Under the pieces are notes generated by a model, which saw only the letters and a program-made list of their open reading frames with translations, was not told where the DNA came from and did no database searches. From the NCBI RefSeq assembly GCF_003334305.1, contig NZ_QOWS01000003.1: a stretch of 64,000 nt of DNA, one strand, 5' to 3'. Source of the DNA: Escherichia coli. GTDB taxonomy: Bacteria; Pseudomonadota; Gammaproteobacteria; Enterobacterales; Enterobacteriaceae. Of the stretch, positions 41,927-42,005 are shown piece after piece (position 1 is the first letter of the stretch; every line of letters begins with the position of its first letter). Made by a program: the position numbers and the translations under genes.

Positions 41927-41957
41927 TAATGGGTGCGGCTTGATGCCCTCACCCCGG

Positions 41958-41978
41958 CCCTCTCCCACAGGGAGAGGG
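41958..41978 (+). other. Perfect 9-bp stem / 3-nt loop hairpin between deoB and deoD
   Basis: ccctctccc aca gggagaggg; no following T-run. Confidence 0.5.
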
Positions 41979-42005
41979 TGAAAACATGTTGATAAGGATA
42001 AAACA

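What the first reader, a model, noticed from the sequence alone, without database searches (positions are those of the whole stretch)
41950..42005. Perfect 9-bp hairpin in the deoB-deoD intercistronic region
ccctctccc-aca-gggagaggg (41958-41978) lies 32 bp after the deoB stop and 28 bp before the deoD start, without a following U-run. It may act as an RNase-protective element or processing site giving differential deoD expression, rather than as a terminator.
Basis: seen in the sequence. Interest (0 to 1): 0.15.

Follow-up and report, generated by a model that had tools for sequence, protein, structure and literature searches.

The report
BoxC repeat between deoB and deoD
The hairpin is real, but it is two thirds of a known, already catalogued E. 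coli intergenic repeat (BoxC, also called PIT or TM_ECO) that about half of E. coli strains carry here in place of a simpler hairpin, so the finding is ordinary.

Summary

It is not a locus-specific signal. With the preceding CCCTCACCC block (41946-41954), the minus strand matches the published BoxC/PIT/TM_ECO consensus exactly. This copy is already listed as TMECO no. 123 of E. coli ATCC 8739 in Holder et al. 2015, Table S8.

The locus has two alleles:
- 2490 of 5426 complete E. coli genomes, including BL21(DE3), carry the BoxC spacer.
- 2934, including K-12 and O157:H7, carry a simple GGGCGGAG/CTCCGCC hairpin. E. albertii has the same spacer, so this form looks ancestral.

Across Enterobacterales, 64 of 79 species have a stable hairpin in this spacer: simple, BoxC, REP/BIME or ERIC.

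The element's function is unproven. PIT elements reportedly lack promoter and terminator activity. Published K-12 Term-seq data place RNA 3' ends 4-5 nt after the hairpin of at least five other BoxC-type copies. A passive barrier to 3'-exonucleases is therefore plausible, but it has not been tested at deo.

Novelty: already known. Interest: low.

The parts
40703..41926 (+). deoB (phosphopentomutase) coding sequence. Its stop codon TGA is at 41924-41926.
   Evidence: ORF list. RefSeq annotation under 100% identical matches.
41933..41986 (-). Full BoxC / PIT / TM_ECO repeat unit, about 54-56 nt. The G-rich, triplex-motif strand is the minus strand. The deo mRNA carries the C-rich strand.
   Evidence: Other E. 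coli copies align to query positions 19-72 of window 41915-42017, which is 41933-41986, at about 91-94% identity. Copies at other loci and in other genera share the flanks GTGCG..CTGATG and (A/T)GAAAAC. BoxC is described as 56 bp in PMC2267715.
41931..41954 (+). Predicted upstream hairpin inside the repeat. GGGTG.GGC (41931-41939) pairs with GCC..CACCC (41945-41954). It uses the third block as its 3' arm.
   Evidence: RNA fold. The two hairpins together give -32.1 kcal/mol.
41946..41954 (+). Block 1, CCCTCACCC. On the minus strand it reads GGGTGAGGG, the third-strand block of the published triplex motif.
   Evidence: Consensus from PMC4666352.
41955..41957 (+). Loop CGG, which reads CCG on the minus strand. 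This makes it the 'type B' TM_ECO.
   Evidence: Types defined in PMC4666352.
41958..41966 (+). Block 2, CCCTCTCCC: the 5' arm of the reported hairpin.
41967..41969 (+). Hairpin loop ACA. It varies among alleles (ACA, TCA, CCA).
41970..41978 (+). Block 3, GGGAGAGGG: the 3' arm of the reported hairpin.
41982..41983 (+). Predicted position of a stable RNA 3' end, if this copy behaves like the K-12 copies. This is an inference and has not been observed.
   Evidence: 3' ends map 4-5 nt after the last G of the hairpin at K-12 positions 164636(+), 3781065(+) and 3959467(-).
41994..41998 (+). deoD Shine-Dalgarno sequence AAGGA. It lies 15 nt downstream of the hairpin and is not paired with it.
42006..42725 (+). 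deoD (purine-nucleoside phosphorylase) coding sequence.
42759..42787 (+). Hairpin GCCGGAG...CTCCGGC followed by TTTTT after deoD. It is probably the intrinsic terminator at the end of the deo operon.
   Evidence: Read from the sequence. The scan tool missed it because the loop is 10 nt.

Best explanation
The hairpin is the Watson-Crick part of one copy of the BoxC repeat of Enterobacteria, also called a PIT element or TM_ECO. The element is a unit of about 55 nt. Its core has three 9-nt blocks. Read on the G-rich minus strand these are CCCTCTCCC-TGT-GGGAGAGGG-CCG-GGGTGAGGG.

This copy sits in the deoB-deoD spacer in about 46% of complete E. coli genomes. There it replaces a simpler GC hairpin that is probably ancestral.

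It is transcribed as part of the deoCABD mRNA, which carries the C-rich strand. RNA polymerase reads through it, so it is not a terminator.

The most likely effect on the RNA is passive (inferred). The stem of about -19 kcal/mol would stop 3'-to-5' exonucleases. Decay intermediates or prematurely ended transcripts would then accumulate with a 3' end about 4 nt after the stem, near 41982-41983. This would modestly favour deoCAB mRNA over deoD mRNA, much as the hairpin it replaced may also do.

What is shown: the identity of the element, its copy family, the two-allele polymorphism, and 3' ends at sister copies in K-12. What is inferred: any effect on deo mRNA.
For: Identity:
- The minus strand matches the published consensus CCCTCNCCC-N3-6-GGGNGAGGG-N3-GGGNGAGGG exactly. 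It does so once in the window and in 0 of 100 shuffles (consensus).
- The 34-mer is identical to MG1655 TMECO #1 and #4.
- It is listed as TMECO no. 123 at NC_010468 4021997-4022030. That interval lies between deoD and deoB.
- The window is 100% identical to ATCC 8739 over 551 nt.

Family:
- Genomes hold a median of 6 matching places.
- Copies at hrpB-mrcB, argF-xynR and ilvC-ppiC share the flanks.

Polymorphism:
- 2490 genomes have the BoxC spacer and 2934 have the K-12-type spacer.
- E. albertii and a divergent Escherichia genome have the K-12 type.

RNA:
- Fold energies are -18.8 and -32.1 kcal/mol.
- Term-seq 3' ends lie 4-5 nt after BoxC hairpins at 164636(+), 632098(+), 3781065(+), 3959467(-) and 4231270(-) in K-12.
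- By my arithmetic, about 0.05 such coincidences are expected by chance for the 23 canonical elements, given 3110 listed ends. Three were seen.
- Stem-loops without a U-run protect 3' ends from PNPase and RNase II.

The slot:
- 64 of 79 Enterobacterales deoB-deoD spacers, and all those of at least 52 nt, hold a hairpin of -10 kcal/mol or stronger.
Against: - No transcript data exist for this locus in a strain that carries BoxC.
- Earlier functional tests of PIT elements found no promoter or terminator activity and no effect on RNA polymerase (cited in PMC4666352). Holder et al. found no link to gene class, distance or operon position.
- At the closest sister copy in the same orientation (ilvC), the curated 3' end on that strand is at a downstream hairpin, not at BoxC.
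- Only 3 of the 23 canonical K-12 copies show a curated 3' end.
- deoD translation starts 27 nt downstream. This should limit Rho action and exonuclease access.
- The stems never vary among alleles or genera, so no covariation supports an RNA-structure constraint.
- In K-12, which has the other allele, deoCABD was analysed and does not appear in the supplementary tables other than the operon list, so it was apparently not reported as differentially decaying.
Confidence: 0.6

Rival explanations
1. Neutral repeat. The BoxC copy has no measurable effect on deo expression. It is present only because this tolerant spacer accepted a spreading or recombining repeat, and the two alleles are selectively equivalent.
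For: Both alleles are common: 46% and 54%. Published tests found no function. The spacer also accepts REP/BIME and ERIC elements in other genera. BoxC loci are unusually variable between strains.
Against: Sister copies coincide with RNA 3' ends. Every spacer of at least 52 nt keeps some stable hairpin. The stems are invariant while the loops change.
Confidence: 0.3
2. DNA-level structure. The G-rich minus strand folds into an intrastrand purine-motif triplex (or a G-quadruplex). This promotes local recombination or instability, or stalls polymerases. The RNA hairpin is incidental.
For: TM_ECO type B oligonucleotides form triplexes in vitro, and TM loci show raised variability (PMC4666352). All three blocks allow a perfect purine-motif triplex. 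The locus is itself polymorphic.
Against: In vivo DMS footprinting did not support a stable triplex, and adding the complementary strand gave duplex. The flanking genes show no excess of changes next to the spacer: the nearest differences from K-12 are 85 nt upstream and 368 nt downstream. The BoxC allele is 97-100% conserved in 2490 genomes. GC skew suggests the G-rich strand is the leading-strand template, which is less exposed as single-stranded DNA (inference).
Confidence: 0.07
3. Transcription terminator or attenuator that lowers deoD transcription relative to deoB.
For: It is a stable GC-rich stem in a spacer. In many genera the hairpin at the same position is followed by a T-run, for example in Rahnella and Xenorhabdus. 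The K-12 allele has a weak T-rich tail.
Against: There is no U-run. PIT elements had no terminator activity. The ilvC transcript has its curated 3' end beyond the equivalent BoxC, at a downstream hairpin.
Confidence: 0.02
4. Chance palindrome with no family relationship.
For: A perfect 9-bp hairpin arises about twice per 64 kb in shuffled sequence.
Against: The three-block motif, the shared flanks, the many identical copies and the published catalogue entry all argue against it.
Confidence: 0.01

Closest known systems
BoxC / PIT (potential intrastrand triplex) element / TM_ECO of E. coli (Bergler 1992 and Bachellier 1990s; Hoyne and Maher 2000, 2002; Holder et al. 2015, PMC4666352)
   Same: The core matches the consensus exactly, as type B with a CCG loop and perfect stems. 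The 34-mer is identical to MG1655 copies #1 and #4. The flanks are shared and the location is intergenic. This very copy is listed as TMECO no. 123.
   Different: Nothing essential. It belongs to the shorter subtype with a perfect stem (9-bp arms, 3-nt loop). Most K-12 copies have 10-nt arms and one mismatch. It lies inside an operon and is absent from K-12 at this locus.
REP/BIME elements in intercistronic spacers (the malE-malF example)
   Same: It works like one, if the inference is right. Both are dispersed GC-rich palindromic repeats transcribed within an operon, whose stem-loop blocks 3'-exonucleases and stabilises the upstream cistron (PMC5927463). REP pairs occupy this same deoB-deoD slot in about 10 other species.
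   Different: The sequence family is unrelated. BoxC has three blocks with triplex potential. It has no known binding protein or transposase, and no RNA-stabilising effect has been demonstrated for it.
[quoted passage not shown]
   Same: A stable stem without a U-run. In the sister copies the steady-state 3' end lies a few nt downstream.
   Different: Here a translated gene starts 27 nt downstream, so Rho termination is not expected. Any 3' end would have to come from decay of the deoD segment.
K-12-type deoB-deoD hairpin (GGGCGGAG-CGTTGA-CTCCGCC-TTTGTTAT)
   Same: It has the same position, directly after deoB, and is also a stable stem (-14.2 kcal/mol). It is the alternative allele in 54% of genomes.
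   Different: The sequence is unrelated and single-copy, with a weak T-rich tail. It looks ancestral in Escherichia, since E. albertii has it.
Intrinsic (Rho-independent) terminator
   Same: A GC-rich stem-loop downstream of a stop codon.
   Different: There is no U-tract, it lies inside an operon, and the family has no terminator activity.

Membership tests
BoxC / PIT / TM_ECO | Three-block core CCCTCNCCC-N3-6-GGGNGAGGG-N3-GGGNGAGGG | tested here: met
   Exact match on the minus strand at 41946-41978. It occurs once in the window and in 0 of 100 shuffles. Consensus quoted.
BoxC / PIT / TM_ECO | Many nearly identical copies dispersed in the same genome | tested here: met
   Genomes hold a median of 6 places. 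The 34-mer is identical at MG1655 164547 and 289246. ATCC 8739 has 20 listed copies.
BoxC / PIT / TM_ECO | Repeat unit of about 50-56 bp with conserved flanks beyond the core | tested here: met
   Homology to other copies spans 41933-41986. Flanks are shared at the hrpB, argF and ilvC loci and in five other genera. The described length is 56 bp.
BoxC / PIT / TM_ECO | Always intergenic | tested here: met
   It lies in the 79-nt deoB-deoD spacer.
BoxC / PIT / TM_ECO | Listed in the published catalogue | tested here: met
   TMECO no. 123 is at NC_010468 4021997-4022030. That interval lies between deoD (ends at 4021969) and deoB (starts at 4022049).
BoxC / PIT / TM_ECO | The G-rich strand folds into an intrastrand purine-motif triplex in vitro | not testable with these tools
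   By inspection the block composition allows only G.G-C, A.A-T and T.A-T triplets. Holder et al. showed this by CD and NMR for type B oligonucleotides.
Intrinsic terminator | GC-rich stem followed directly by a U-run | tested here: not met
   The stem is followed by TGAAAACA. The scan finds no terminator-like site here.
REP/BIME | REP consensus of the GCCGGATG...type, usually in inverted pairs | tested here: not met
   The window spacer has no such motif. REP-like pairs are seen only in the spacers of other species.
Any Rfam RNA family | Match to a curated covariance model | tested here: not met
   A cmscan of 36000-46000 at E<=1 gives nothing at this site.
RNase-protective intercistronic stem-loop (functional class) | A stable RNA 3' end just downstream of the stem, and a longer half-life of the upstream cistron | not testable with these tools
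   Only sister copies in K-12 could be checked. At least five of them have 3' ends 4-5 nt after the stem. There are no data for this locus.

The most novel reading that the evidence does not exclude
BoxC elements as a class may act as RNA 3'-end-defining, exonuclease-blocking hairpins, as REP elements do. The deoB-deoD spacer may be a slot under selection for any stable stem-loop, filled in different lineages by a simple hairpin, BoxC, REP/BIME or ERIC. If so, the roughly 46:54 polymorphism between BoxC and the simple hairpin in E. coli (BL21 versus K-12) would be a natural allele swap that shifts the DeoCAB:DeoD balance.
Probability: 0.2. Interest if true: 0.35.

Novelty: already known. Interest (0 to 1): 0.1.

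Why it matters
It matters little as a discovery. The element belongs to a repeat family known since the 1990s, and this exact copy is in a published table.

It has some practical value:
- Annotation pipelines do not mark BoxC, so such hairpins will keep being flagged as locus-specific signals.
- K-12 and B/BL21 strains differ at this spacer. They form a ready-made pair for testing whether BoxC does anything to an operon mRNA.
- Published Term-seq data place RNA 3' ends at several BoxC hairpins. I did not find this link stated in the BoxC papers read here.

Tried and rejected
- An Rfam scan of 36-46 kb gave nothing relevant.
- No other copy, full or partial, was found in the 64-kb window by blastn-short or by pattern search.
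- The NC_000913.3 annotation of the argF-xynR copy has no repeat feature, so BoxC is not annotated there.
- A literature search for deoB/deoD terminators or processing found nothing useful.
- One Term-seq search failed on syntax and another returned nothing.
- No supplement is held for Dar and Sorek 2018 NAR.
- No Term-seq data set for BL21 was found.
- The idea that the left flank (GGGTGCGGCTTGATG) is a remnant of the K-12 hairpin was rejected. The same flank accompanies BoxC copies at other loci.
- Recent horizontal import of the allele could not be settled. The spacer is 91% identical to that of Pseudocitrobacter, against 87-88% for the flanking genes. There is no SNP cluster next to the spacer.
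- A covariation test was pointless because both stem arms are invariant in all 11 aligned alleles.
- The readings as a terminator, a promoter or a chance palindrome were all rejected.

Full report
**Observation**

The sequence at 41958-41978 is CCCTCTCCC-ACA-GGGAGAGGG, as reported. deoB ends at 41926 and deoD starts at 42006. Both gene names are confirmed by RefSeq annotation under 100% identical matches. The stem is followed by TGAAAACATG, so there is no U-run, and the terminator scan finds nothing there.

As RNA the stem gains a G41957-U41979 pair and folds at -18.8 kcal/mol. A perfect 9-bp hairpin is only mildly unusual. The window has about 9 such loci against about 2 in dinucleotide shuffles. 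This particular stem pattern is unique in the window and was never produced by shuffling.

**What it is**

Directly upstream lies CCCTCACCC (41946-41954), joined by a CGG loop. Read on the minus strand, the region is CCCTCTCCC-TGT-GGGAGAGGG-CCG-GGGTGAGGG-C.

This matches exactly the consensus CCCTCNCCC-N3-6-GGGNGAGGG-N3-GGGNGAGGG that Holder et al. 2015 (PMC4666352) give for TM_ECO. That motif was earlier named BoxC and then PIT, for potential intrastrand triplex. The match occurs once in the window and in 0 of 100 shuffles. The CCG loop makes it their type B.

Their Table S8 shows three things:
- The same 34-mer is present at MG1655 164547 and 289246.
- TMECO no. 123 is listed at NC_010468 (E. 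coli ATCC 8739) 4021997-4022030.
- That interval lies between deoD and deoB in that record.

The window is 100% identical to ATCC 8739 over the 551 nt tested. The element is therefore already catalogued.

BLAST against 5426 complete E. coli genomes finds a median of 6 related places per genome. Homology to the other copies spans window 41933-41986. Copies at hrpB-mrcB, argF-xynR and ilvC-ppiC share the flanks GTGCG..CTGATG and (A/T)GAAAAC. This gives a unit of about 54-56 nt, in line with the 56 bp described for BoxC (PMC2267715).

Inside the unit the left flank pairs with block 1. The RNA is therefore predicted to form two adjacent hairpins with a total of -32.1 kcal/mol. Rfam has no family for it.

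**The locus is polymorphic**

K-12 has a different, 56-nt spacer, TGGATTTGGGCGGAGCGTTGACTCCGCCTTTGTTATGTCACAAAAAGGATAAAACA. It contains a simple hairpin of -14.2 kcal/mol with a weak T-rich tail.

| Spacer type | Complete E. coli genomes | Examples |
|---|---|---|
| BoxC (79 nt) | 2490 of 5426 | ATCC 8739, BL21(DE3); by sequence and position in the catalogue probably also HS and E24377A (not checked) |
| K-12 type (56 nt) | 2934 of 5426 | K-12, O157:H7 |

E. albertii and a divergent Escherichia genome have the K-12 type. The simple hairpin is therefore probably ancestral in the genus, and BoxC replaced it.

The flanking coding DNA shows no cluster of differences next to the spacer. The nearest differences from K-12 lie 85 nt upstream and 368 nt downstream.

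**Wider comparison**

I compared deoB-deoD spacers from 79 Enterobacterales species.
- 64 hold a local hairpin of -10 kcal/mol or stronger. Every spacer of at least 52 nt does.
- The 15 without one are 26-45 nt long (Pantoea, Erwinia, Pectobacterium, Brenneria).
- The structured element differs between lineages. It is a simple GC hairpin in many, sometimes with a clear T-run. It is a REP/BIME-like pair in about 10 species and an ERIC/IRU-like element in about 10.
- BoxC is present, in the same place and orientation, in Pseudocitrobacter, Phytobacter, Leclercia, Enterobacter and an unnamed enterobacterium.

The Pseudocitrobacter spacer is 91% identical to the window's spacer. The flanking genes are only 87-88% identical. 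This fits either an old shared allele or gene exchange, and I could not decide between them.

In 11 aligned BoxC-type spacers both stem arms are invariant. Substitutions fall only in loops and flanks. That shows constraint or homogenisation, but gives no covariation evidence for an RNA structure.

**How it probably works**

Published work gives no function for BoxC:
- The triplex forms in vitro but was not detected in vivo.
- There is no link to gene class or position.
- The loci are more variable between strains than control loci.

I checked published K-12 Term-seq data (Adams et al. 2021, PMC7815308, supplementary file 1). Curated 3' ends lie 4-5 nt after the last G of the hairpin at five sites. 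I verified the register against NC_000913.3 for the three canonical copies.

| K-12 position | Element | Orientation in the RNA |
|---|---|---|
| 164636(+) | TMECO #2 | C-rich |
| 3781065(+) | TMECO #17; the 'primary' end of lldD | C-rich, as in the deo mRNA |
| 3959467(-) | TMECO #20 | G-rich |
| 632098(+) | degenerate copy | C-rich |
| 4231270(-) | degenerate copy | C-rich |

The three conditions list 3110 ends in total. By my arithmetic, about 0.05 such coincidences are expected by chance for the 23 canonical copies. Three were seen.

[quoted passage not shown] Intercistronic stem-loops are also known to stabilise upstream cistrons (PMC5927463).

The most likely role of the deo copy is therefore a passive exonuclease barrier, which would give a 3' end near 41982-41983. 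This is inference. Several points count against it:
- At the sister copy downstream of ilvC, in the same orientation, the curated 3' end on that strand is at the next hairpin (3959531), not at BoxC.
- Only 3 of the 23 canonical copies have curated ends.
- deoD translation begins 27 nt downstream.
- In K-12, deoCABD was analysed for differential decay, but it appears only in that study's list of operons examined.

The deoD Shine-Dalgarno sequence (41994-41998) is not occluded by the hairpin.

At the DNA level, the G-rich strand is the template strand for deo transcription. GC skew suggests it is also the leading-strand template. This does not favour triplex formation during replication.

**Verdict**

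The element is a known BoxC/PIT/TM_ECO copy that is already catalogued, so novelty is 'already known' and interest is low.

The one mildly new lead concerns BoxC hairpins and mapped RNA 3' ends. The natural allele pair of BL21 and K-12 would allow a clean test of it.

Noticed in passing
L001:428-483 (K-12 JM83 deoB-deoD spacer); not in the window: K-12, O157:H7 and E. albertii have a different 56-nt spacer. It holds a simple hairpin, GGGCGGAG-CGTTGA-CTCCGCC, followed by TTTGTTAT. This looks like a weak terminator or attenuator inside the operon. 2934 of 5426 E. coli genomes carry it, in two sub-variants (at least 99% identity, and about 93%).
   Followed up: partly
L006-L085, positions about 350-600 (deoB-deoD spacers of 79 Enterobacterales species): The spacer is a hot spot for structured repeats: simple hairpins, REP/BIME pairs, ERIC/IRU elements of about 127 nt, and BoxC. 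Every spacer of at least 52 nt contains a hairpin of -10 kcal/mol or stronger. Only the short spacers (26-45 nt) of Pantoea, Erwinia and Pectobacterium lack one.
   Followed up: partly
K-12 NC_000913.3 positions 164636(+), 632098(+), 3781065(+), 3959467(-), 4231270(-): Published Term-seq 3' ends (Adams et al. 2021) fall 4-5 nt after BoxC-type hairpins. I did not find this link stated in the BoxC/TM_ECO papers I read.
   Followed up: partly
L042:471-600 (Enterobacter cloacae DSM 26481 deoB-deoD spacer): It holds about one and a half BoxC units in tandem. A truncated copy ends in CCCTCTCCCTCGAGAGATAC and is followed by a complete copy. This suggests local duplication or rearrangement of the repeat.
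   Followed up: no
L019, downstream of deoD (Pseudocitrobacter faecalis): A second BoxC copy, in the opposite orientation, lies downstream of deoD. The copy in the deoB-deoD spacer has a mutated third block (CCCTCACCT).
   Followed up: no
window 42886-43149 (-): BL21(DE3) annotates a small helix-turn-helix gene here as an intact 87-aa protein. In the window it carries an in-frame stop at codon 50, so it is probably a pseudogene in this strain.
   Followed up: partly
window 42759-42787 (+): GCCGGAG-(10-nt loop)-CTCCGGC followed by TTTTT, 34 nt after the deoD stop. It is probably the operon's intrinsic terminator. The consensus scan missed it because of the long loop.
   Followed up: no
window 41946-41978 (-): The G-rich strand also fits a G-quadruplex pattern (GGG-AGA-GGG-CCG-GGG-TGA-GGG). 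Holder et al. argued from NMR that the DNA oligonucleotide forms a triplex rather than a quadruplex.
   Followed up: no
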